Assembly: GCA_964291265.2 (NCBI GenBank)
Contig: OZ219747.1
Coordinates: forward strand, 2,688,001-2,752,000
Origin: Alphaproteobacteria bacterium
Lineage (GTDB): Bacteria; Pseudomonadota; Alphaproteobacteria; SP197
Length of the DNA: 64,000 bases
Direction: 5' to 3'
Shown here: one piece after another, positions 19,041 to 49,979 of the stretch
How the letters are laid out: the number at the start of each line of letters is the position of its first letter
Position numbering within the stretch: position 1 is the first letter of the stretch
Translations under genes and position numbers: made by a program
Notes under the pieces: model-generated
Databases searched by the model: none
The model's input: the letters and a program-made list of their open reading frames with translations, nothing else
What the model was told of the DNA's origin: nothing

Positions 19041-19267
19041 ACGAAGGAAAGAACCAGATCCATCACGATCCGATCGAGACAGGCCCGGCGGCGGCAGTCT
19101 TGCCTTCACGAATAACAGTGGGTGCGTGAAAGGTGGCATGGCACTGGATTGCACGGCCCCGATGAGCGACAATCAACCGTCAGGTGAGCGTGTCTTGCAT
19201 CGTGCCCGGCAGCGAAGGAAGCAAGTCTGGCGCAACAGCCAGCAGAACGCTCCCGAGGAGTGATACG

Positions 19268-20011
19268 ATGAAGGATGCGGACGAGTATCGGTTTGTCATC
19301 GACGCCTGCGACCCCGATACCCTGCCGATGTCGGATCTGGCCGAATACATGGCTGATCTGGCACGACTGCTCGGCAGTGAGGAGCAGGTGCATTTTGTGC
19401 GTCTTGAAGCTGGCAGCACCGTGCTCGTGCAGCAGGTCGAACGGCAAGCTGCTCCCGAAGTGAAACGCCGAATACATGAACTTGCCGCGCCCACTGCCCC
19501 GGAGGATGCGATCAGGGCATTTGCGGCACTCAACCGACGCCTGGCCAAGGACGGTGCAACCGGCAGCTTGCTGGAAGGTGTTGACACCGAAATCATCCGT
19601 TTTCCTGGTCGAGAGCACTCGCCAGGATTGACGTTCGGTGCCTTCAATCAGCTGGGTGTTCTCGACGGCGTGCTCATCCGCATCGGCGGACGGGACGACA
19701 CCGTGCCGGTGCATCTGCATGACGGCGAGACAATTCACGTATGCAACGCCACCCGTGACATGGCCAGGGATCTTGCGGCTTACCTTTACGGCCCGGTTCT
19801 GCGGGTGCACGGCGAAGGACGCTGGGAACGTACAGTGGATGGCATCTGGTTGATGAAGCGCTTCAGTATCTCGAAGTTCGGGGAACTCGATGATGCACCC
19901 TTGAGCGAAATCGTGGAGAGGTTGCGCGGTGTTGAAGGCAGCGGTTGGCAGGATATCGATGATCCGCTGGCGGAAGTCCGAAGATTGCGCGGTCTTGACG
20001 AGGTACACTGA
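19268..20011 (+). CDS. Hypothetical protein (247 aa), partner of the PIN protein
   Basis: GAGGAG RBS; PDTLPMSDLAEYM..LARLLG...VHFVRLEAGS; beta-rich C-terminal half; TGATG overlap with the PIN gene. Confidence 0.8.
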   Translation: MKDADEYRFVIDACDPDTLPMSDLAEYMADLARLLGSEEQVHFVRLEAGSTVLVQQVERQAAPEVKRRIHELAAPTAPEDAIRAFAALNRRLAKDGATGSLLEGVDTEIIRFPGREHSPGLTFGAFNQLGVLDGVLIRIGGRDDTVPVHLHDGETIHVCNATRDMARDLAAYLYGPVLRVHGEGRWERTVDGIWLMKRFSISKFGELDDAPLSEIVERLRGVEGSGWQDIDDPLAEVRRLRGLDEVH

Positions 20012-20481
20012 TGGCAATCTTCGATGCCACGACACTCCTGTACCTCCTCGAACCAGATGCAAGAGCGCCTCTTGATCCCGACACGAACAGCTCAGTGCCG
20101 GGTGCCCGACAACGCATCGAATTCCTGATCAAGACACTTGAAGCTCGACGCGAAACCGTCGTGATTCCGACTCCGGTTCTCAGCGAGGTACTGGTCCACG
20201 CTGGTGCCGCAGGACCCCGTTACCTCGACATACTGGACAGCACCCGTTGTGTCCGTATCGAGCCATTCGAGCGCCGGGCGGCCATCGAGCTTGCGGAGAT
20301 GACCCGCGATGCCATCAAAGACGGCGACCTGCGTGCCGGCACCGCAGCGACGCGGGCAAAGCTCAAGTTCGATCGACAGATCATCGCCATTGCGCGGACC
20401 GTGGGAGAGTCCACCATCTACTCCGATGACACGGATATCGCGAAGCTTGGCGGAATGCTCGGGCTCAGTATCGTACCCTAG
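20011..20481 (+). CDS. PIN-domain (VapC-like) nuclease
   Basis: IFDAT, IPTPVLSEVL, FDRQIIAIA, IYSDD acidic PIN pattern. Confidence 0.85.
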   Translation: MAIFDATTLLYLLEPDARAPLDPDTNSSVPGARQRIEFLIKTLEARRETVVIPTPVLSEVLVHAGAAGPRYLDILDSTRCVRIEPFERRAAIELAEMTRDAIKDGDLRAGTAATRAKLKFDRQIIAIARTVGESTIYSDDTDIAKLGGMLGLSIVP

Positions 20482-20652: not shown

Positions 20653-22968
20653 ATGCGAATGACGAATGTAGTGGCCGCCCTGCGGTCGTGGGTGGAACGT
20701 CTCTGGCTCTTCGCGAGCACGACCTTATCGCGTGTCGGCGAAGTCAGCCCGATCAGTTCGCCTCCGGTGTCCGAACCCGTGAACGGGACTGTGGACGCTG
20801 AAATGTTGGACCAGAGCGGGCCGCAGGCGGAAGATTCTCTCACTCAAGCCTCGGGCCAACTTGAGGGACTCAACGGCAATTATACTGAGAACGGGCTGCA
20901 CGACGACAAACAACCACCCATCGACTCGAACACCACTTCCGTCGAATCGAATCTCGATGCCGAAGATCAGCTGTCCCCGGTTTCCACTGAAAACGGGCCT
21001 GACAAGTCGCCCACTGTGGTTTCGCCGACGGGTGACGACAGCGAACAGACTCAGCTTGAGACCATCGACAAACCGGGAGATGGAGGGGCGGACGGCATTT
21101 CAGAGAGCGGCGCGAGTGAAGCAAATTCACAAAAAAAAACCGGGCCACACCGCAGCGGAGGGAAGAGAGGTACGCAGTCCGGCAGGCTGCCATCGGGTCA
21201 GCAGAAATCGCCATCTAACCGCCCCGAATTGGTCTGCCGGAAAAATCCCTCGTCTGCAGGTTGGGAGGTCATCCTGATCACAGACGAGAAAGCGCAACTT
21301 GACACCGTGTTCCTTGATGGTAGGCCCCTGGACTTCTCCGATGGACGATGCCGTATTCCGTCATTGGACGGATGCCTGACCGTTTCCTATCGAGACGGAC
21401 AGGAACATGTCGTACCTCTGTTCGAGAGCGAACCTCTCATCTTCAAGCTACCAAAGTACTGGTCTGGCGAAGGGCGCAGAACCACCGGGATCACCAGCGG
21501 GTACTTCATCGTTTTCGCTCCGAGTATATGGCAACGGACGGGTCACGCGCCAGTTGAAGCCGACGGCTGTGCCGATCCGGAATTCAGGGCGCATTATTTC
21601 CACCGGGACGCTTTCGCATCAGAAGGCGTTGACGGCTTTCGCGAGTCGGAAGCTCCCTTCGCCACCGGCATCGAATTGACCGGCCGGCGCATCTTCGACG
21701 ATTCTAAGGACGGCGAGCTGTTCGTCGGTGACCCACCCGATATGAAATCCCCGCCTGAGCTTGCATGGGCCCGGGTCGGAGAGGAAACCGGGAGTGGCTG
21801 GGGGGAGAACTTCAAACCCCAAGAGCAATCGCTCTCGAAGGTCTTGGGCAGAAGGAGAGGCCGCTTCTTTCTCCGAGTGTACGATTCGGAAGTCAGCATG
21901 CTCGACAGCCTGGCGTTCCGGCATCTGCCCAACTTGCGGCAGATCTGCGTCAATGGAGCTGAATACGCACCGGACACGGTGCTCGTACCGGGCCTGAGGG
22001 GATACCCGCCCATGGATGTGAGCTTTGTCAGCGCGGATAGCTCAACGCTTTCGCCTGTTCTGCCCACCGGGGCTCGCCAAAAGGTGCTGCCCTCGGGCGC
22101 GATTGAGGTTCCACCGCACCCGGACGCGGATCGCATAGAATGCAGGTTCGGATCCGATGCGCGCGGCGTGAACATCGTCGTCGACCTTCCTCGAATCTGG
22201 TGGCGATTGGACGGTCGCACCGATCCTGGTCCATGGCGCGATACTCCGCTTGTCATGACGCGAGAGGAGTTCCGCAAACAAGCTCACTCGGACGCGACGA
22301 TTTCGCTCCTGTCCAAGCGGCAAGTATCTGTCTGCGTGGGATTCGGCGACGAGCTGAACCAGCCTTACCGCCGAACGATCGAAGATGATCGTATTGTTGT
22401 CCCCCTGGATCACTTCGTCGATCACGCGCAGATCGACAGGAGACTGAATGCCGATGCCTGCTTCAACGTTCAGTGGGCACGGGAGATTGTGTCGCTCATC
22501 GTGATTTCGGCCGATCCCATGCCCGAGATTGTTTCGTTCACTGCGGAACCGGCGACAATTTTCGTCGGCGAGGAAACAGTGTTGGAGTGGACGAGCCGGA
22601 ACGCTGGCGACGCCCGCGTCGCCATGATTCCGGACGCAGGTGTGCTCAAAGTTGACGGATCATGCACCGTCCGCCCCGCTGAAACAACCACGTATACGCT
22701 CATCTTGGATGTTCTCGGCGCCGACGAAGTCAGCAGGACCGTTACGGTCGCCGTCGTTTCACCGACTACTTCGGGCAAACAGACGGTCCCTCGCGTCATG
22801 TCTACCGCAAGCGGGTGGAGAACCGGTAAAGGCTTCAGTTTCGGTGAACTCAAGGAAGCCGGGCTGTCGCTCAAGGAAGCAGTGGACCGATCCATTCCAA
22901 TAGACAGGCGCCGGCGGACCTTGCATCGAACCAACGTTGAGACAATCGGAAGGATGCTTGATGCCTGA
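20653..22968 (+). CDS. 771-aa multidomain protein: disordered N-terminus, beta-rich core, Ig/PKD-like domain, C-terminal eL13-like domain
   Basis: PEIVSFTAEPATI..GE...LEW...NA...GS..V.P..TTTYTL Ig-like motif; WRTGKGFSFGELKEAGL...IPIDRRRRTLH..NV. Confidence 0.8.
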   Translation: MRMTNVVAALRSWVERLWLFASTTLSRVGEVSPISSPPVSEPVNGTVDAEMLDQSGPQAEDSLTQASGQLEGLNGNYTENGLHDDKQPPIDSNTTSVESNLDAEDQLSPVSTENGPDKSPTVVSPTGDDSEQTQLETIDKPGDGGADGISESGASEANSQKKTGPHRSGGKRGTQSGRLPSGQQKSPSNRPELVCRKNPSSAGWEVILITDEKAQLDTVFLDGRPLDFSDGRCRIPSLDGCLTVSYRDGQEHVVPLFESEPLIFKLPKYWSGEGRRTTGITSGYFIVFAPSIWQRTGHAPVEADGCADPEFRAHYFHRDAFASEGVDGFRESEAPFATGIELTGRRIFDDSKDGELFVGDPPDMKSPPELAWARVGEETGSGWGENFKPQEQSLSKVLGRRRGRFFLRVYDSEVSMLDSLAFRHLPNLRQICVNGAEYAPDTVLVPGLRGYPPMDVSFVSADSSTLSPVLPTGARQKVLPSGAIEVPPHPDADRIECRFGSDARGVNIVVDLPRIWWRLDGRTDPGPWRDTPLVMTREEFRKQAHSDATISLLSKRQVSVCVGFGDELNQPYRRTIEDDRIVVPLDHFVDHAQIDRRLNADACFNVQWAREIVSLIVISADPMPEIVSFTAEPATIFVGEETVLEWTSRNAGDARVAMIPDAGVLKVDGSCTVRPAETTTYTLILDVLGADEVSRTVTVAVVSPTTSGKQTVPRVMSTASGWRTGKGFSFGELKEAGLSLKEAVDRSIPIDRRRRTLHRTNVETIGRMLDA

Positions 22969-25900
22969 TACCGACATAAGGGGTTGGCCGGAGAGAATTC
23001 GGCAACGCTACGAGAACTACCTGAAGACCTCTTTCTTCTTCAAGGAACCCCACTTGCGAGCGTCTTTCCAGGAAGCGTTGAGCGAAGAGGGAAGCCTCCT
23101 GCAGGGACCCTTTCCGGAACCCCATCGAGGTTTCGAGAAAAGACTTCACGCGCATGCGCTGGCAGGCGAGTGTTTCCCCGACTGTGCCGGAGGTCTCTTG
23201 CCAGCCCTGATTGATCGCCCGCTGTACGCACATCAGGAACGCGCCATCCGCGCCACGTATGTCGAGGACCTCAATGTGGTGGTCGCAACCGGCACCGCCA
23301 GCGGCAAGACCGAGAGCTTTCTCTACCCCATCCTGTTCGAACTGTATCGCCAGCATCTTGCCGGGGAGTTGGAAGAGCCGGGCGTGCGAGCGATGATCCT
23401 GTACCCCATGAATGCGCTAGCGAACGATCAGCGCGAGCGGCTCGGGGCAATCTGCGGCCGCTTGCGTGAAGCGGGATCCGATTTCGAGCCGACGTTCGGA
23501 CAATACATCGGCCAGACGCCGGAAAATGCCGGGGACCGATGGCGAAACGCGGCAGCTCGCGCCGACGACCGGTTATCCGGCGAGCTTGTCTTTCGCAACA
23601 AGATGCGGCAGTCGCCGCCTCACGTGCTGCTGACCAACTACTCCATGCTGGAGTACCTGTTGATACGTCCCGATGACAGCCCCCTGTTCGACGGCGGGAG
23701 AGGCGCACACTGGCGGTTCATCGTGTTGGACGAGGCGCATCAGTATCGTGGCGCGAGAGGCATGGAAATGGGGATGCTGATCCGCCGTCTCAAGCAACGG
23801 TTGCGCGATGGGGGACGGCAACGGCCGTTTCGATGCATCGCCACCAGTGCGACCATTACCTCCAGCCAAGGCGACGAAGATCGGCAGGCCGTAGCCGAGT
23901 TCGCATCGGAATTATTCGGCGAGTCTTTTTCGATACCATCCATCGTGTTTGGGGAGTCGCTCGGTGCCGACGATCACGGGCCTCCCAGGCGCTATCACGC
24001 GTTTCTCCGTGCGCTCGAGGGCGCCTTCCTCGTTCACCGGAATGGTGTCGATGCGGTGGTGCTCAATCGCAGGAACCAGGACGCAGGCGGCGCGGCCACG
24101 CAGCCGCTCGAGATCGCGCTGTGTCGCGAGTGTGGGCAGCATTACTACGTTGGTCGGGAGCACAAGGGGTGTCTGCGAGAAGCCATCCGTGATCCGAGCC
24201 ATCCAGAATTCGGTGTCGAGCATTATCTGCCGGCAGACGATGGAAACGAATGGCTGTGTAGACGCTGCGGCGCCTTGTCAGGCTCCACACCTGGCTGCGG
24301 CTGTGGCGCAGCAGTACGCGTAAGGAAGTGCGACTCCCACGAACACAATCCCGATCAACTGAAGAAGTGCGCCGTCTGCGGCTACCGGCGCGGAGGAGTT
24401 GGCGATCCCGTCCAGGAAATCGTGCATGGATCGGATGGTCCCAACACGGTTATCGCTACTGCGCTGCACGAACTGCTCCAGCAAGATCGGCGCAAGGTTC
24501 TCGCGTTTGCAGATAACCGTCAGGAGGCGGCGTTTTTCGCATGGTATGCCGAGGATTCTTACAAGAAGCTGCGTGACAGGAATTTCATCCTGAGAGCGAT
24601 CCTGTCGGAATCGGTTGCCGAAGAGGGCCTTTCGATCGATGACCTTCGGAGCCGTTTGCTCCGGGAATGGGACGATGCAGGACTCTTCCGCGAAGCCGAT
24701 ACCCGGGAGCAGCGAACCCGTCAGGTGCTGACGTCCATCCTGCGCGAGGCGGTTACGGACGAGAAGAGATTGTCCTTGGCTGGCGTCGGCCTGGTCAAGT
24801 GGTTTGTCGCTCTCCCCCGGGACCTCCGCTTGCCCGACGCCATGCTGCGGGCGCCCTGGAACCTCAGTGAAAACGACGCGCGTCTCCTGATCGGCCACGT
24901 TCTGGATGAGATGCGCCCGCGCCGTGCCATCAGCTTGCCCGAGGGCGCAGGGACGCCCGAATGGAGCGCTGTCTCGCCTTGGCCGCAACAGGCATTCGGC
25001 ACAGCACCACGCGGCAGGCGGCGCCATGTTCTGCAATGGGGCGGCTCGCAATCGGCGATCGTTAGTCATTTCCTTCGCCGGCTCCTGGCAGACAGTGATC
25101 TGACCGATGACAGGAAGCGAACCGTGTCGATTGAACTGATGAAGGAGATTTGGCTCGCCCTGCGGGACAATGCTCGTGACCCCTTACTCCGGTGTGCAAG
25201 CAAAAACGGCACATTCCAGCTTGACTCGCGCTGGCTTCGGATCAAACCGGCCAACCTCGACGAAATTTGGGAGTGCGACATTTGCGCAACGCTCGGAAAC
25301 TATAACATTCGAGGTGTATGCCCGCGTAACCACTGTCCTGGTACGCTCTCCCCGGCTCGTCAAGAACGTCTGGTCGGCAACCACTATCGTATCCTCTATG
25401 AGAGTCCCGCATTGCCCCCCGAACTGCGCGCCGAAGAACACACCGCCCAGATCGATGCCGACGAGGCGCGCCGGAGGCAGGACGAGTTCAAGAATGGCGA
25501 CATTCACCTGCTCAGCTCCTCGACCACGTTTGAGGTTGGCGTCGATCTTGGCGATCTGGAGGCCGTCTTTCTCCGCAATGTTCCCCCGGAATCGTTCAAC
25601 TACGCTCAGCGCGCCGGTCGGGCCGGTCGGCGGGACACACCTGGCCTGGTGCTGACCTACTGCCGCCGCAATCCCCACGACCTCTATCATTACGAGAAAC
25701 CCGTCGGTCGCGTGATCGAAGGTACAATACACCCGCCGCGTCTGCACATGACGAACGAGAAGATCGTTCTGCGCCATATGGTTGCCGTTGCCCTGTCAGA
25801 GTTCTTCAAGCAGGATCCAGACAGGTTCCGGAACGTCGAAACGTTTTTGGGTGGCTGGCATGTGCCTCGTGCAACGAAAGACCTGTTCGGCTTCTGCGAA

Positions 25901-27163
25901 GATAACGGAGAACTGAAGGAAACCATGCGCCGCATCGTTCCGGCGAACATGCATGACCGGGTCGGTCTTGACGATGATGCCTGGGTTTTGAACATAACGG
26001 GCAAGGACAGCCGCCTTGCTCTCGCGGAGGCGGAGGTGAGCGCGGACTTTACCGCGATGGAGACCCTTCGCAGGGAGTATTTCGACAAGGGCAAGGACAG
26101 TTCGATCGGACGTATCCGCAAGCGGATGAAGACCATTGCGGAGGAGAGGGCGCTGAACTTCCTTTCCCGTAAAGCTATCATTCCGAAGTACGGGTTTCCG
26201 GTGGATGTCGTCGAGCTGGATGTCCGGTCAACGGACGAACGGCCAACCGGTGTCGCGCTTCAGCGGGACCTGTCCCAGGCGATCGCCGAGTACGCTCCGG
26301 GTGGTAAGGTGGTTGCCAACAAACTCGAATGGGAGTCCTGCGGCGTCAAGGCGATTGCCGGGAAAGCATGGCCTGTGCGCCATTACCGGTATGACGATGC
26401 CCGCAGTTTCAGGCAATGGAACGAGGGTGACCCCGACGCACCTTCGGACGAACGGAAGTACCTCATTCCCGAGTTCGGTTTCGTAACTCCCCTGTTCAAG
26501 AAGCCTGCTGAGCCGCAGGGGCGCGCACGACGCCTCTACACGACGCGACCGTTCTTTCGCGATTTCGACGCGCAACCCAAGACCAAAACCGTTCTCGGCG
26601 TGAAGGTGACACGGGCTGTTCCCGGGGTCCTGGTCATCCTGTGCGAAGGCCGGAACAGGGCGGGGTTCTACATCTGCCGATCTTGCGGAAGTCACATGAC
26701 GGTGCCTCAGGTCCCCCACAGATCGCCATCTGGCTCCGATTGCAAGAAGAGCACATTGGAACGATTTTCCCTTGGCCATGAACTGGCCACTGACGTCGTG
26801 CGCCTTCAGTTTCCGATGGTCCACGGCGAGTGGGATGCGTATTCGGTCGCTTACGCCGTCCTGCTCGGTGCGGCAGACACGCTCGAAGTGCCGGACACCG
26901 ACCTTAACGTCACCATTGCTGGCGGAGATAGTCCGGGTGAGTCCGCGGTTGTGCTCTACGACAACGTGCCGGGTGGCGCCGGGTTGGTGGCACAGCTGGA
27001 AAACGAACAGATCTTGGGCGAAGTCCTTGGCGCCGCTACGGAACGGGTGCGGGGCAATTGTGGCTGCGACACCAGCTGCTACGGTTGCCTCCGCAGTTAC
27101 CGCAATCAATTTGCACATGCCCAACTCGACCGGACCCGGGCGCTGGATATCCTTACCCGATAG
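22961..27163 (+). CDS. YprA/DruE-like SF2 DEAH helicase with Zn-finger inserts and C-terminal DUF1998 (MrfA Zn-binding) domain
   Basis: LYAHQ, TGTASGKT, YPMNALANDQ, TNYSMLEYLL, LDEAH, TSAT, AFADNRQ, STTFEVGVDLG, QRAGRAGR, YDNVPGGAG...CGC..SCYGCL; ATG at 22961 overlaps the upstream stop by 8 nt. Confidence 0.93.
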   Translation: MPDTDIRGWPERIRQRYENYLKTSFFFKEPHLRASFQEALSEEGSLLQGPFPEPHRGFEKRLHAHALAGECFPDCAGGLLPALIDRPLYAHQERAIRATYVEDLNVVVATGTASGKTESFLYPILFELYRQHLAGELEEPGVRAMILYPMNALANDQRERLGAICGRLREAGSDFEPTFGQYIGQTPENAGDRWRNAAARADDRLSGELVFRNKMRQSPPHVLLTNYSMLEYLLIRPDDSPLFDGGRGAHWRFIVLDEAHQYRGARGMEMGMLIRRLKQRLRDGGRQRPFRCIATSATITSSQGDEDRQAVAEFASELFGESFSIPSIVFGESLGADDHGPPRRYHAFLRALEGAFLVHRNGVDAVVLNRRNQDAGGAATQPLEIALCRECGQHYYVGREHKGCLREAIRDPSHPEFGVEHYLPADDGNEWLCRRCGALSGSTPGCGCGAAVRVRKCDSHEHNPDQLKKCAVCGYRRGGVGDPVQEIVHGSDGPNTVIATALHELLQQDRRKVLAFADNRQEAAFFAWYAEDSYKKLRDRNFILRAILSESVAEEGLSIDDLRSRLLREWDDAGLFREADTREQRTRQVLTSILREAVTDEKRLSLAGVGLVKWFVALPRDLRLPDAMLRAPWNLSENDARLLIGHVLDEMRPRRAISLPEGAGTPEWSAVSPWPQQAFGTAPRGRRRHVLQWGGSQSAIVSHFLRRLLADSDLTDDRKRTVSIELMKEIWLALRDNARDPLLRCASKNGTFQLDSRWLRIKPANLDEIWECDICATLGNYNIRGVCPRNHCPGTLSPARQERLVGNHYRILYESPALPPELRAEEHTAQIDADEARRRQDEFKNGDIHLLSSSTTFEVGVDLGDLEAVFLRNVPPESFNYAQRAGRAGRRDTPGLVLTYCRRNPHDLYHYEKPVGRVIEGTIHPPRLHMTNEKIVLRHMVAVALSEFFKQDPDRFRNVETFLGGWHVPRATKDLFGFCEDNGELKETMRRIVPANMHDRVGLDDDAWVLNITGKDSRLALAEAEVSADFTAMETLRREYFDKGKDSSIGRIRKRMKTIAEERALNFLSRKAIIPKYGFPVDVVELDVRSTDERPTGVALQRDLSQAIAEYAPGGKVVANKLEWESCGVKAIAGKAWPVRHYRYDDARSFRQWNEGDPDAPSDERKYLIPEFGFVTPLFKKPAEPQGRARRLYTTRPFFRDFDAQPKTKTVLGVKVTRAVPGVLVILCEGRNRAGFYICRSCGSHMTVPQVPHRSPSGSDCKKSTLERFSLGHELATDVVRLQFPMVHGEWDAYSVAYAVLLGAADTLEVPDTDLNVTIAGGDSPGESAVVLYDNVPGGAGLVAQLENEQILGEVLGAATERVRGNCGCDTSCYGCLRSYRNQFAHAQLDRTRALDILTR

Positions 27164-31025: not shown

Positions 31026-31355
31026 TCAACCCTTCGGGAACGGAATGACGTTGCCTCTGTCGTCTGTCTCGTTGGTGTTGATCGTGATGGTCAGAGGATC
31101 GCCTTCGCCATCGGCGGTCTTCGCACGGATCTCCACCTCGTACACGACCCCGGGCTCCAGGTCGACAAAGGTACACGTCGGCAAGGGCGACTCGAATCCA
31201 GGCCCCCACGGCACCGAGCCCTTCTCGCGTATGCGGATGACATGGGTAACAGACGATTCCCACCGTGCATCGATCGTCCGACCGTCATCGACCGGAAGCG
31301 ATACGTGCCAGGCCTTGCCATCCCACGTGATCTTCGGACTTGCGATGTCGGTCAT
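31026..31355 (-). CDS. Small stand-alone fibronectin type III domain protein
   Basis: W...VIRIRE....W......FVDLEPGVVYEVEIRAKTADGEG Fn3 pattern; ATGA overlap with the upstream gene. Confidence 0.7.
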   Translation of the reverse strand: MTDIASPKITWDGKAWHVSLPVDDGRTIDARWESSVTHVIRIREKGSVPWGPGFESPLPTCTFVDLEPGVVYEVEIRAKTADGEGDPLTITINTNETDDRGNVIPFPKG

Positions 31356-33073
31356 CGAGGCGTCCATTCCTCGATCCGGTACTCGGTTCGCAGGAACTGC
31401 CTGCGAGTCTGGAGTCCTTCAAACACCTCGTCGGCATTCATTCGTTCAAGAGAATCGAGCGTCAGGGATGATCGGGCTTCGGCATAGAAGCGGTCGCTGC
31501 ACCGTTCCACGTAAGCCTCTTGCCACCATGTGCAGATCCGGTCCCTGGCGCCCTCGAGAGCCTCAGCCGATGGAAGGCGCGCACACTTCTCATTCTGATT
31601 GACGTGCCTGTGGGCGGGAAGGAGGTTCCACAGGGCATCGCAAGGCCAGGCCGCCCATGGCATGCAGTGATCGATGTTGAGGCTCCTGCTGTCAAGCCTG
31701 CGGCCCGTCCAGACGCAATGGAGGGTCCCCGATTCGAGAAGATTCCGGGAGATCTCGCGGGCATCGCCGACATCGCGGTCAGGGTCGGACCAACGCATGG
31801 CGTCGGCGGCCTCTTGATGATTGAACTCTTCGCCCTGCCTCGCTGCCCAGTCGGACATCAGCTTGGTCCACTCGGCGACAAGCGCCGGCTCGATCCAGGC
31901 GTCATGGCGCCTGAGCGAGTTCCACAAGTGGACGGGGACGCGAAGGCTGCCGAACTGTGCCAGGTACCCCTGGTCGATGAGAAGTGACCCGGGCGCCGCC
32001 TTGCTTCTTTCCCTGTGCGCTTCGAACACCTGGTCGCTGGAACCCGGCAATGTCATGTGTCTGATCGGCATTTCGACGATGTTGGCGGCGGCATCCCGTA
32101 ACGCCCTGTGCAGGCCATGGGCCTCGGAACCCGAGAAACTGCGGCCGACACGCAGGTCGAAGGCGGCGACATCGCTGATCGCATGCCAGCCTTCCTGGTG
32201 GATGAACCCGAGACTGAAGACGTCGTGGCGGCCGGGGCGTTGTCGCAGGCCGGCGCCGACCAGCGGCTTGTAGAGTCTGAGCCAGTTGAGGGCAACGAGA
32301 CCGAGGGGCACGGTGACGAACTTGTCGTCATCATGGTGCGCCATGCCGGGGGCGCCGTCGGCGGCCCGCGCCACGGCGCGGAGCAGGCCGAGCTTGTAGG
32401 TCGCTGACTTCCTGTCGTTGAGGATGATGTGGCGAAGCAGGGGGAGCGCGCCCGTGCCGTCATCGGGAAGCTGCAGGGCCACCTGCTCCCACCTGATGCC
32501 GGGACGGTTCAGACTGTCTGGCGTGATGTCCCTGGCAAGCGTCATGGCGCCATGGCGGCGGGCGAGGGATTCAATGTCGGCCGCGGTGGAGCGGTGCATG
32601 CCGTCGTCGGCGTCGTTGCCGCCGACACGCAGCGCGAAGATCATGAGCCCGCCGGGCTTGAGGACGCTGATGAGCTTGCGAAAGGCACGCGGCCGCTCAT
32701 TCGGATGGACATGCATCCACACGGCATTGAGCAGAATGACGTCGTAGCTCAGGCCCCTTCCGACAACGCGTCCGAGCGTCGGCAGGCCATCGCGGATCCA
32801 GGTGATTCGCGGTGTCGGGTGTCTTCGTTGCGCTTCGGCGAGCATCGTCGCCGAAGGGTCGACAGCCACGACCTCGTAGCCCCTTGCAGCGAACCACGCG
32901 GCGTCGCGGCCCGATCCGGCGCCGACATCGAGCACGGCAGACGGTGGAGCCGGCAGGCGATCGGCGAACCAGGCATGGAGCGCATCGGGGTCGACGGATT
33001 CATAGCGCTCGGCAAGGGCGCGTCCCGCATCGCCCTCGTACCTGCCCATCTGGCTGGGTGTCCTGGCCATCAT
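31352..33073 (-). CDS. Class I SAM-methyltransferase fused to an HNH endonuclease
   Basis: VLDVGAGSGRDA, AVWMH, LKPGG; KSATYKLGLL; CVWTG...IDHCMPW...WNLLP....VN..K. Confidence 0.88.
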   Translation of the reverse strand: MMARTPSQMGRYEGDAGRALAERYESVDPDALHAWFADRLPAPPSAVLDVGAGSGRDAAWFAARGYEVVAVDPSATMLAEAQRRHPTPRITWIRDGLPTLGRVVGRGLSYDVILLNAVWMHVHPNERPRAFRKLISVLKPGGLMIFALRVGGNDADDGMHRSTAADIESLARRHGAMTLARDITPDSLNRPGIRWEQVALQLPDDGTGALPLLRHIILNDRKSATYKLGLLRAVARAADGAPGMAHHDDDKFVTVPLGLVALNWLRLYKPLVGAGLRQRPGRHDVFSLGFIHQEGWHAISDVAAFDLRVGRSFSGSEAHGLHRALRDAAANIVEMPIRHMTLPGSSDQVFEAHRERSKAAPGSLLIDQGYLAQFGSLRVPVHLWNSLRRHDAWIEPALVAEWTKLMSDWAARQGEEFNHQEAADAMRWSDPDRDVGDAREISRNLLESGTLHCVWTGRRLDSRSLNIDHCMPWAAWPCDALWNLLPAHRHVNQNEKCARLPSAEALEGARDRICTWWQEAYVERCSDRFYAEARSSLTLDSLERMNADEVFEGLQTRRQFLRTEYRIEEWTPR

Positions 33074-47678: not shown

Positions 47679-49979
47679 TCAGCCAACGAAGTCGAAGTCG
47701 GCCTCGGTCAGTTGCGACGCCTGAATGCCCACCACGGTCACAGTCCCCAAGGACCAGGTGATGACGGCGCCGCTGTCGGACTGCCGGATATCGAGGTCGT
47801 CGAAGCCGAGCTCCGAGTCGACCGTGTAGAAGTCGATGCGGTCCGTCCTGTCTTCGAAGTCGAGGATCGTGTCGTCGCCGCCCTTCGTGAATCCGAACGC
47901 GTCGAATCCCGTGCGGCCCCGGAGCATGTCGTCGCCCGTGGTGTCGACCATCAACCAGTCGGGCAGGCCGAAGAAGTTGAAATCGTCTTCGGTCAGTTGC
48001 GACGTCTGGATCCCTTCCAGGGTGATGGTCCCCAGGGACCAGTTGATGGCAGCGCCGCTGTCGGACTGCCAGATCTCGAGGTCATCGAAGCCGAGTTCCC
48101 CGTCGACCGAGTGGAAGTTGAGGCGGTCCGTCCCGTCCTCGAAGTCGAGGATCGTGTCGTCGCTGCCATCCTCGAATCCCCACTCGCCGTAGTAGCCCTT
48201 CTCGAAGAACCCGAACTGATCGGCACCCTCTCCTCCCCGAAGCGTGTCAACCCCCAAGCCACCCGAGAGAAAATCGTTGCCCTTGCCGCCTTCCAGCGTG
48301 TCGTTGCCGTCACGACCGGTCAGAAAGTCGTCGCCGTCCCCGCCCCGGAGCTCATCGTCGCCCGAGTTGCCGCGGAGGAGGTCGTTGCCTGCGCCGCCAT
48401 GGATGATGTCATCGCCTTTTCGCCCGTAGAGCTTGTCGTTGCCCTCGTTGCCGTAGATCGTGTCGTCGCAGGCGGTGCCGAAGAGCCAATCGCGCCCCGC
48501 GCCGCCATGAATGGTCTCGCCGCAGTCCTCGACGTCGAGCGTCCCATCGCCTGAAGTGCCCGGGACCGTGTCCTCGTCGCCGCCGCCGTCGTTGTCGTTG
48601 TCGAGGGGGTTGCCGCCGTCGTTGTCGTCGTCGAGGGGGTTGCCGCCGTCATTGTCGTCGTCGCTCGTACTGGCGCCGTACACGACCGTTTCACCGCCGC
48701 CACCGCCAGCAGGCAGGATGAAGTCGTCCGCGTCCAGGCCGCCCACCGACACACCCGACAGCCTGATCGTGTCGCCGCTGTCGCCATAACCGACGACGGC
48801 GTCGTCGCCGTCCTGCTCGATGATCAGCGCCTCAAACCCGCCGGATACGCCATCCAGGCGAATCCTGTCGCCACCCCCGAAGTCGGTAATGGTGTCGGCC
48901 CCGTCTCCCGCCGCGAACACGAAGGTGTCGCTGCCCTTGCCGCCAGCCAGCGTGTCGTCGCCGGCCCCGCCGGTCAGCGTGTCGGCGCCCCTGGCGCCAC
49001 GCAGGGTGTCGTCGCCAGCTCCGCCCATCAGCGTGTCATTGCCCTTGCCGCCCCCCAGGGTGTCGTCGCCAGCCCCGCCGGTCAGCGTGTCGGCGCCCAG
49101 GCCGCCATAGAGGAGGTCGTCGCCGGCTCCACCGGTCAGCGTGTCGGCGCCCCCGTAGCCGCGCAGGGTGTCGTCGCCATCACCACCGGTCAGCGTGTCG
49201 GCGTCCTTGCCGCCCTTCAGCACCTCGCCGCCAGCAGGCCCGCCGCTCGAGGCGTCGCCGGACGTGCCCTGCGGCGGTGCACCCTGTGCCAGGGCGTCCG
49301 GCGAGACAGCCTCCTCGCCGCCAGCCTCCGGTGGTGCGGTCCCGGCATCCGGAAACCGGAAGTCGTCCGCGCCCAGGGAGGACGCCGTCACGTTCTCCAG
49401 CGTGATCTTGTCGCCATCACCGTAGCGGATGACGGTATTGGAGCCGTCCTGCTCGATCACCAGGTCCCCGAGGCCGCCGGACACGCCGGCGATCTCGATG
49501 ATGTCGCCGGACTCGAAACCGGTCATGGTGTCGGCCCCGTCCCCCACTGCGAAGGCAAAGACATCGGCCCCCAGGCCACCATAGAGGTAGTCGTTGCCTC
49601 GGCCGCCCGTCAGCCGGTCGTCGCCCTGACCGCCGAACAGGCTGTCGATGCCGTCACCCCCGTCGAGCGTGTCGTCACCGTTGCCGCCATAGAGCGTGTC
49701 CGCCCCGGCGCCGCCGGTGAGCGTGTCGGCGCCCGCGCCGCCGTCCAGCGTGTCGTCGCCCGCACCGCCGTCCAGCGTGTCATCGTCCGAACTGCCGGGG
49801 TTCATGTCGAGAAAGCTCGCGTCGGCGCCCGGGTTTGCGGTTCCGCCCGTCAGCGTGTCGTCCCCGGCGCCGCCGGTGAGGATGTCGTCTCCGAGGCCAC
49901 CGGTCAGCGTGTCGTCGCCGATGCCGCCCGTCAGCGTGTCATCGCCGACGCCGCCGGTCCGGGATATATCCTGTGTCAT
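47679..49979 (-). CDS. RTX (haemolysin-type Ca-binding repeat) protein, probable T1SS substrate
   Basis: Many GGxGDDTLx nonapeptides, repeated DTITDF...ITL.GV....L..DDF modules, no N-terminal signal peptide. Confidence 0.93.
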   Translation of the reverse strand: MTQDISRTGGVGDDTLTGGIGDDTLTGGLGDDILTGGAGDDTLTGGTANPGADASFLDMNPGSSDDDTLDGGAGDDTLDGGAGADTLTGGAGADTLYGGNGDDTLDGGDGIDSLFGGQGDDRLTGGRGNDYLYGGLGADVFAFAVGDGADTMTGFESGDIIEIAGVSGGLGDLVIEQDGSNTVIRYGDGDKITLENVTASSLGADDFRFPDAGTAPPEAGGEEAVSPDALAQGAPPQGTSGDASSGGPAGGEVLKGGKDADTLTGGDGDDTLRGYGGADTLTGGAGDDLLYGGLGADTLTGGAGDDTLGGGKGNDTLMGGAGDDTLRGARGADTLTGGAGDDTLAGGKGSDTFVFAAGDGADTITDFGGGDRIRLDGVSGGFEALIIEQDGDDAVVGYGDSGDTIRLSGVSVGGLDADDFILPAGGGGGETVVYGASTSDDDNDGGNPLDDDNDGGNPLDNDNDGGGDEDTVPGTSGDGTLDVEDCGETIHGGAGRDWLFGTACDDTIYGNEGNDKLYGRKGDDIIHGGAGNDLLRGNSGDDELRGGDGDDFLTGRDGNDTLEGGKGNDFLSGGLGVDTLRGGEGADQFGFFEKGYYGEWGFEDGSDDTILDFEDGTDRLNFHSVDGELGFDDLEIWQSDSGAAINWSLGTITLEGIQTSQLTEDDFNFFGLPDWLMVDTTGDDMLRGRTGFDAFGFTKGGDDTILDFEDRTDRIDFYTVDSELGFDDLDIRQSDSGAVITWSLGTVTVVGIQASQLTEADFDFVG
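48582..48663. repeat. 30-bp in-frame tandem repeat (~2.7 copies, DDDNDGGNPL) inside the RTX gene
   Basis: GCCGCCGTCGTTGTCGTYGTCGAGGGGGTT repeated. Confidence 0.85.

What the first reader, a model, noticed from the sequence alone, without database searches (positions are those of the whole stretch)
22786..22968. Archaeal/eukaryotic ribosomal protein eL13-like domain at the end of a bacterial protein
Seen: the C-terminal ~60 aa read PRVMSTASGWRTGKGFSFGELKEAGLSLKEAVDRSIPIDRRRRTLHRTNVETIGRML. Established: the eL13 (L13e) core is R-x-G-[RK]-G-F-[ST]-x-x-E-L-x-x-A-G-[LI]...I-x-[VI]-D-x-R-R...N-V, and eL13 is part of eukaryotic and some archaeal ribosomes, not bacterial ones. Order and spacing match across the whole domain. 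Inference: a captured RNA-binding module that may tether the helicase to structured RNA or ribosomes, or act as sensor or decoy.
Basis: partly seen in the sequence, partly recalled or inferred. Interest (0 to 1): 0.85.

Follow-up and report, generated by a model that had tools for sequence, protein, structure and literature searches.

The report
Swappable eL13 tail on helicase partner
A bacterial protein encoded directly in front of a Druantia-type helicase ends in a whole copy of the short archaeal ribosomal protein eL13, which relatives have repeatedly replaced with parts of ribosomes or RNA polymerase (once with the cell's own gene), so this tail is likely an exchangeable recognition tip of a likely anti-phage system.

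Summary
Confirmed. Residues 712-771 of the 771-aa ORF (20653-22968, +) are a true eL13 homologue: Pfam L13e above cut-off, the model superposes on S. pombe eL13 (Z 8.2, 2.0 A over 58 residues), and the tail equals a whole short archaeal eL13 (52% identity). It is under purifying selection (dN/dS 0.32) and ends 120 of 146 distant homologues. The protein (acidic N-terminus, predicted beta-sandwich core, tail) overlaps a nuclease-less DruE-like helicase; the helicase follows it in 37 of 40 loci, and the two co-diverge across phyla. The partner does not match DruH profiles. Tails were swapped at least 10 times, for uS5, uS17, RNA polymerase alpha and omega, TrcR and others. One omega tail is 98% identical in DNA to that host's own rpoZ and lies inside a broken eL13. 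In another locus a 49-nt piece of the gene itself sits at the same site. Best reading: an exchangeable, probably nucleic-acid-binding tip on a Druantia-like defence pair; decoy and tolerated-insertion readings stay open. No paper found. The scan reported this family on other DNA many times.

The parts
20653..22968 (+). Partner gene, 771 aa: basic, Trp-containing N-terminal segment, acidic linker, beta-sandwich core, one further Ig-like domain, eL13 tail
   Evidence: ORF; 303 homologues; models
20653..21132 (+). N-terminal ~25-aa segment predicted weakly amphipathic, then an acidic, fast-evolving, probably disordered linker (aa 31-160: 26 D/E, 3 K/R)
   Evidence: Composition and dN/dS 0.66; family mean hydrophobic moment 0.66 vs 0.53 shuffled over 172 proteins, but 0.51 for this protein itself; not modelled
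21208..22512 (+). Conserved core (aa 186-620), predicted almost all-beta, with Ig/FN3-like sandwiches; no named family
   Evidence: AF2 pLDDT 95.3, pTM 0.89; best VIA Z 6.7 to an FN3 domain; no Pfam, PADLOC or NCBIfam hit in the core; dN/dS 0.28
22513..22767 (+). Last Ig/PKD-like domain (aa 621-705), absent in some homologues
22786..22968 (+). eL13-homologous tail (aa 712-771), equal to a whole short archaeal eL13; net basic
   Evidence: dN/dS 0.32
22961..27163 (+). DruE-like YprA-family SF2 helicase, 1400 aa from the ATG overlapping the partner's stop by 8 nt; Walker A, DEAH and motif VI intact, several CxxC pairs, ends at the DUF1998/MZB domain with no nuclease extension
   Evidence: Pfam DEAD, Helicase_C, MZB; PADLOC DruE1 484 bits, DruE3 455 bits; motifs; dN/dS 0.14
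19184..20481 (+). Upstream pair (275-aa PHROG 19868 protein and a PIN-domain protein); low GC3 like the module but not part of the conserved unit
   Evidence: found in none of the 42 related loci scanned

Best explanation
The tail is a whole short archaeal eL13, captured probably once, that caps a predicted Ig-scaffold protein co-inherited with a nuclease-less DruE-like helicase, and it likely acts as an exchangeable nucleic-acid-binding tip that would load or switch on the helicase during phage infection. Shown: homology, fold model, purifying selection, gene linkage, horizontal spread of the pair, and repeated replacement of the tail, including by the host's own rpoZ. Inferred: that the pair is anti-phage (by kinship with DruE); that the partner plays DruH's role (DruH is also a multi-Ig protein whose C-terminal domain binds ssDNA and contacts DruE); that the tail grips structured RNA or single-stranded DNA through the kept eL13 residues; and that the helicase then unwinds phage DNA intermediates without cutting them itself.
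For: eL13 identity. G-[KR]-G-F-S-x-x-E, D-x-R-R, H and N are 92-100% conserved in 119 tails and 90-100% in 117 stand-alone eL13s, and both sets are net basic (+7.4, +9.6). Tail dN/dS 0.32, like the core. The helicase lies downstream in 37 of 40 loci, a start codon overlaps the partner's stop in 29 of 31 checked, no third gene is conserved, and core and helicase distances correlate (Mantel rho 0.89, 0 of 2000 permutations) with phyla intermixed. The helicase scores best against DruE profiles and solved DruE-sized chains. In type III-A, DruH has six Ig domains and binds ssDNA between Ig5 and its C-terminal domain (10.64898/2026.05.12.722862 section 9), and contacts DruE through that domain (10.64898/2026.05.13.724313 passages); eL13 occupies the same end position. 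Several replacement tails are nucleic-acid binders by established knowledge (uS5, uS17, NusB, HTH-like).
Against: No function was tested. The partner has no PADLOC DruH hit and no profile match to another DruE partner, so the DruH analogy rests on architecture only. Omega, alpha-NTD, the NusA acidic repeat and TrcR are mainly protein-binding by established knowledge, and one tail is a MacB periplasmic domain. Insertions in the middle of eL13, including a piece of the gene itself, suggest the tail can be broken. The same tail is kept in a helicase-free family in 18 of 44 genomes of one order, so it has a use apart from the helicase. The helicase has no nuclease, so the effector step is unexplained.
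Confidence: 0.42

Rival explanations
1. Integrated decoy or guard: the tail slot displays copies of gene-expression machinery as bait for phage proteins that hijack RNA polymerase or ribosomes, or docks the system on that machinery; binding or modification of the bait would release the helicase.
For: Nearly all tails that can be named are transcription or translation parts: eL13, uS5, uS17, alpha-NTD, omega, TrcR, NusB (in tandem with eL13), NusA repeat below cut-off, bS6 only weakly. The omega tail is 100% identical in protein and 98% in DNA to that host's own rpoZ, against 73-80% for 19 other genomes of the genus. At least 10 independent changes of tail are forced by well-supported branches.
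Against: Bacteria have no eL13, so the commonest tail mimics no host target. The uS17 and uS5 tails are only 42% and 34% identical to their hosts' copies. The four rpoZ differences are all synonymous, which shows no diversifying selection. Highly expressed short genes may simply be the easiest to capture in frame.
Confidence: 0.25
2. The slot is a tolerant insertion hotspot: eL13 is a modestly useful cap and most replacements are neutral accidents, perhaps promoted by the helicase's own DNA handling.
For: A 49-nt piece 98% identical to the same gene's core sits inside eL13 in L037. The insertions in L028, L037, P0174, P0176 and P0229 all end just before the I-P-I-D-R-R segment. Most swapped tails are singletons, one is MacB, and 8 of 146 representatives are truncated or frameshifted.
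Against: The tail is under purifying selection with invariant residues and has been kept across a family diverged to about 47% core identity. The named replacements are whole folded domains, strongly biased to one functional class.
Confidence: 0.13
3. The tail works outside phage defence, for example as a membrane-tethered RNA or ribosome binder, or as a mimic aimed at an animal host's ribosomes, and the helicase link is secondary.
For: A second family (basic N-terminus, long acidic linker, eL13, no core) sits at a conserved chromosomal site, and the helicase was not found in 4 of 4 such genomes. The family was not found in 400 genomes drawn across the window's phylum but occurs in MAGs of many phyla, several of which I recall as sponge symbionts.
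Against: The second family nests inside the partner tails, so it looks derived. The tail matches the short archaeal form, not the long eukaryotic one. The partner co-diverges with a defence-type helicase.
Confidence: 0.15

Closest known systems
Ribosomal protein eL13/L13e (Pfam PF01294; short archaeal form NCBIfam NF008914; chains 9e6q_AH, 8esq_L)
   Same: Same fold and motif over the whole short archaeal protein; 52% identity to the best stand-alone copies, whose named members are mostly from Bathyarchaeia, Korarchaeota and Thermoproteota.
   Different: Fused to the end of a 771-aa bacterial protein; below the equivalog cut-off; lacks the Lys-rich archaeal C-terminal extension; bacterial tails form their own side of the tree.
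Druantia type III (DruH-DruE), especially the nuclease-poor 'type III-like'/III-B branch of Bell et al. (PMC12458937)
   Same: Two overlapping genes, partner first; YprA-family helicase with DUF1998; predicted multi-Ig partner; no nuclease domain on the helicase, as Bell et al. state for most of the type III-like branch.
   Different: The partner is 771 aa, not about 1100, has no detectable DruH homology, and shows an acidic linker where DruH has a helical N-terminal domain and an eL13 where DruH has a helical C-terminal domain; the helicase is 1400 aa, shorter than the 1667-2108 aa DruEs seen.
Integrated-decoy domains of plant NLR receptors (recalled, not tested)
   Same: A fixed immune scaffold carrying a variable copy of a host protein at one end.
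   Different: No NLR/STAND fold; bait function is unproven; the commonest domain comes from another domain of life.

Membership tests
eL13 / L13e | Pfam PF01294 above gathering score | tested here: met
   27.8 bits (whole protein), 33.5 (tail) vs 24.9
eL13 / L13e | NCBIfam NF008914 equivalog cut-off (functional archaeal L13e) | tested here: not met
   54.7 vs 96 bits
eL13 / L13e | eL13 core fold | tested here: met
   Model vs 8esq_L Z 8.2, rmsd 2.0 A, 58 residues
eL13 / L13e | Invariant G-[KR]-G-F-S-x-x-E and D-x-R-R...H..N residues | tested here: met
eL13 / L13e | Stand-alone subunit of an archaeal or eukaryotic large ribosomal subunit | tested here: not met
   C-terminal domain of a 771-aa protein in a bacterial genome
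eL13 / L13e | Binds rRNA | not testable with these tools
   Inferred only from conserved basic residues
Druantia type III | DruE: SF2 helicase with DUF1998 | tested here: met
Druantia type III | Two-gene unit, partner upstream of helicase | tested here: met
   37 of 40 loci; no third conserved gene
Druantia type III | Partner is DruH by sequence profile | tested here: not met
   No PADLOC DruH hit for P0002 or 12 relatives; the C. butyricum DruE partner has none either, so the profiles are narrow
Druantia type III | Partner is DruH by structure | tested here: inconclusive
   Ig/FN3-like domains predicted; no DruH among listed fold hits, and the libraries may not hold it
Druantia type III-A | C-terminal PLD nuclease domains on DruE | tested here: not met
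   Helicase ends about 20 residues after the MZB domain
Druantia type III-like / III-B (Bell et al.) | Helicase falls in that branch of the YprA tree | not tested
   No reference set in hand; Supplementary Tables S1-S2 not read
Druantia type III | Protects against phage | not testable with these tools
   Needs plaque assays

The most novel reading that the evidence does not exclude
A mobile bacterial immune pair that keeps capturing whole genes of the gene-expression machinery, from an archaeal ribosomal protein long ago to its current host's own rpoZ very recently, into one fixed slot of its sensor, so that its target range is reprogrammed by gene capture: a prokaryotic integrated-decoy receptor with an insertion hotspot.
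Probability: 0.25. Interest if true: 0.92.

Novelty: new variant of a known kind. Interest (0 to 1): 0.72.

Why it matters
An archaeal ribosomal protein has been kept under selection in bacteria as a non-ribosomal domain and spread between phyla. The partner family is large (303 hits at 90% clustering, over 140 clusters at 50%) and unnamed, and how Druantia partners sense infection is disputed in the 2026 papers. The natural tail swaps on one scaffold, including a dated capture of the host's own rpoZ, give a ready set of variants to test whether the tip sets specificity. If it does, this would be a decoy-type receptor in bacteria.

Tried and rejected
Assembly artefact: rejected (family conservation). 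Archaeal contamination or a native bacterial eL13: rejected; the domain is fused in frame, is the only match in the genome and rang in none of 14 control genomes. Phage or plasmid origin: no match for the tail in 50,697 phage records, for the partner in 72,556 plasmids, or in IMG/VR. Single-sequence search for short relatives found none; the tail profile found 166. A capture enzyme or third gene nearby: none recurs; no tRNA within 20 kb and no flanking repeat found. DruH homology: no PADLOC hit, hhalign probability 0.2% against the C. butyricum partner; fold searches gave only generic Ig/FN3 hits and did not list DruH. Partner core with helicase residues 340-905: complex prediction gave no verdict. 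Sponge thaumarchaea as donor: unlikely, as L13e is reported missing in nearly all thaumarchaea; no donor group is resolved. Host copies of the L034, L032 and LEYYRG tails: not found in their genomes. The LEYYRG tail has only an Atlas lead to phage clusters at 0.88 and no tblastn hit in phages or plasmids. Nine unnamed tails stayed below all cut-offs. Metagenome hits L066-L075 match little beyond the Ig repeat, and L066 is an RHS protein. No RNA holder listed.

Full report
Observation. Window 22786-22968 (+) encodes the last 60 residues of a 771-aa ORF at 20653-22968. The tail passes the Pfam L13e cut-off (33.5 bits alone, 27.8 in the whole protein, cut-off 24.9), hits the archaeal L13e model at E 5.8e-15 but under its equivalog cut-off, and retrieves eL13 chains from the PDB, best 9e6q_AH at E 2.3e-8. 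In an AlphaFold2 model of residues 186-771 the tail superposes on S. pombe eL13 with Z 8.2 and rmsd 2.0 A over 58 residues. A profile of 26 tails found 166 proteins of 30-123 aa, of which 120 were listed; most are stand-alone short eL13s, with names from Bathyarchaeia, Korarchaeota and Thermoproteota and one labelled Paceibacterota. The tail covers the folded length of these proteins, at up to 52% identity, and the same residues are near-invariant in 119 tails and 117 stand-alone sequences. [quoted passage not shown]

The carrier protein. It has a short basic N-terminal segment, an acidic linker (26 D/E against 3 K/R in residues 31-160; dN/dS 0.66), a conserved core (dN/dS 0.28), a last Ig-like domain and the tail (dN/dS 0.32; 12 loci). 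The core models at pLDDT 95 as nearly all beta; its best structural matches are generic FN3/Ig domains at Z 6.7 or less. The gene overlaps by 8 nt a 1400-aa helicase with DEAD, Helicase_C and MZB domains and intact motifs, which ends without a nuclease domain and scores best against DruE profiles.

Family and linkage. There are 303 homologues at E 0.001 or better. Of 40 genome loci, from Alpha- and Gammaproteobacteria, Acidobacteriota, Binatota, Rhodothermota, Bdellovibrionota, Chloroflexota and unnamed bacteria, 37 have helicase sequence downstream, five of them interrupted or cut by a contig end; L017, L031 and L042 have none. No third gene recurs. Over 32 pairs, core and helicase distances correlate (rho 0.89) and phyla are mixed in the tree. 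The gene is patchy: 3 of 33 genomes of the window's family, none of 400 others drawn from its phylum. Third-position GC is 0.62-0.70 against 0.83 for one nearby housekeeping gene. The pair moves as a unit.

The tail is exchangeable. Among 40 loci, 29 end in eL13, 9 in something else and 2 are broken. Among 146 representatives at 50% identity (150 listed, 4 giant Ig-repeat proteins dropped), 120 end in eL13, 18 in another domain and 8 are truncated or frameshifted; the query profile contained eL13, so these shares favour it. Named tails above cut-off are uS5 (three proteins), uS17, omega, alpha-NTD, TrcR, NusB placed between the last Ig and eL13, and one MacB periplasmic domain; a NusA repeat is below cut-off and bS6 is weak. 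On core trees eL13 is spread throughout and other tails are nested; well-supported branches force at least 13 changes with FastTree and 10 with IQ-TREE. The bacterial tails fall on one side of the eL13 tree (97/77, 65 columns, bootstrap unsettled), with two 55-59-aa sequences that may be fragments; holding them together is not rejected. One old capture is thus likely but not proven.

A dated capture. In G043 the tail is omega: 311 nt at 97.7% identity to the genome's own rpoZ about 730 kb away, from just before the start codon to just after the stop, with four coding differences in 96 codons, all synonymous. The rpoZ of 19 other genomes of the genus is 73-80% identical (23 searched). The C-terminal half of eL13 survives behind it in another frame. 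By contrast, the uS17 and uS5 tails are 42% and 34% identical to their hosts' copies. In L037 a 49-nt piece 98% identical to the same gene's core sits inside eL13, the only such case in 10 loci checked, and three proteins have in-frame inserts ending at the same place. This site takes up DNA repeatedly, and not only useful DNA.

A helicase-free offshoot. In the order of G043, 18 of 44 genomes encode a basic N-terminus, a long acidic linker and the same tail without the core. Eleven of 14 such loci share neighbours, none has the helicase within the 11 kb fetched, and it was not found in 4 of 4 genomes searched. These tails form one clade inside the partner tails.

Mechanism. In type III-A Druantia, DruH has an N-terminal domain, six Ig domains and a C-terminal domain that binds ssDNA and contacts DruE (10.64898/2026.05.12.722862, abstract and section 9; 10.64898/2026.05.13.724313, passages). 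The papers disagree on DruH: indirect scaffold (10.64898/2026.05.13.724758, abstract and section 11), protein sensor (PMC13192584, passages), or DNA sensor that a phage tail protein can trigger (PMC13316683, passages). Bell et al. describe a type III-like branch that mostly lacks a nuclease (PMC12458937, passages and section 5). The partner here is not DruH by profile but has a similar layout, with eL13 at the recognition end. I commit to a nucleic-acid-binding tip that loads or activates the helicase (0.42). Rivals are a decoy or dock for gene-expression machinery (0.25), a role outside defence (0.15) and a tolerated insertion hotspot (0.13). All functional steps are inferred.

Novelty. Druantia with L13e gave 0 papers; a decoy and domain-fusion search gave 0; searches listed nothing on this by title or abstract start. 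The supplements of Bell et al. were not read and may list this clade. The scan itself has reported the family, the acidic offshoot and the omega fusion on other DNA. The lead on uS5, uS17 and RNA polymerase tails came from those notes and was tested here; the omega capture and the offshoot I found before seeing the matching notes. Verdict: a real, unpublished variant of a Druantia-like pair; interest 0.72.

Noticed in passing
window 19184-20481 (+): A 275-aa protein of PHROG 19868 overlapped by a PIN-domain gene, possibly a toxin-antitoxin or defence pair; a diverged copy lies elsewhere in the genome.
   Followed up: partly
window 31352-33073 (-): A 573-aa fusion of a SAM methyltransferase and a C-terminal HNH domain, 4 kb beyond the helicase; possibly a second defence gene.
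   Followed up: no
window 31026-31367 (-): A 113-aa ORF with a weak fibronectin type III hit.
   Followed up: no
L028:9601-9911 and L050: Host rpoZ copied into the eL13 slot, with half of eL13 left out of frame behind it.
   Followed up: yes
L037:9713-9761: A 49-nt copy of the gene's own core inserted in frame in the middle of eL13.
   Followed up: yes
   Followed up: partly
L009:9564-9854, L015:9558-9854: An unnamed ~95-aa tail (LEYYRG motif) found in separate branches of the family; weak lead to small phage proteins.
   Followed up: partly
protein P0123: A 1173-aa homologue with the core and last Ig duplicated in tandem before one eL13 tail.
   Followed up: no
L057:2759-10644: Clostridium butyricum plasmid pair of a 1069-aa unnamed protein and a 1559-aa DruE-like helicase, the closest helicase among plasmids; its partner matches neither PADLOC DruH nor this family.
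   Followed up: partly
window 47947-48032: tRNA-Phe, 20 kb from the module.
   Followed up: no
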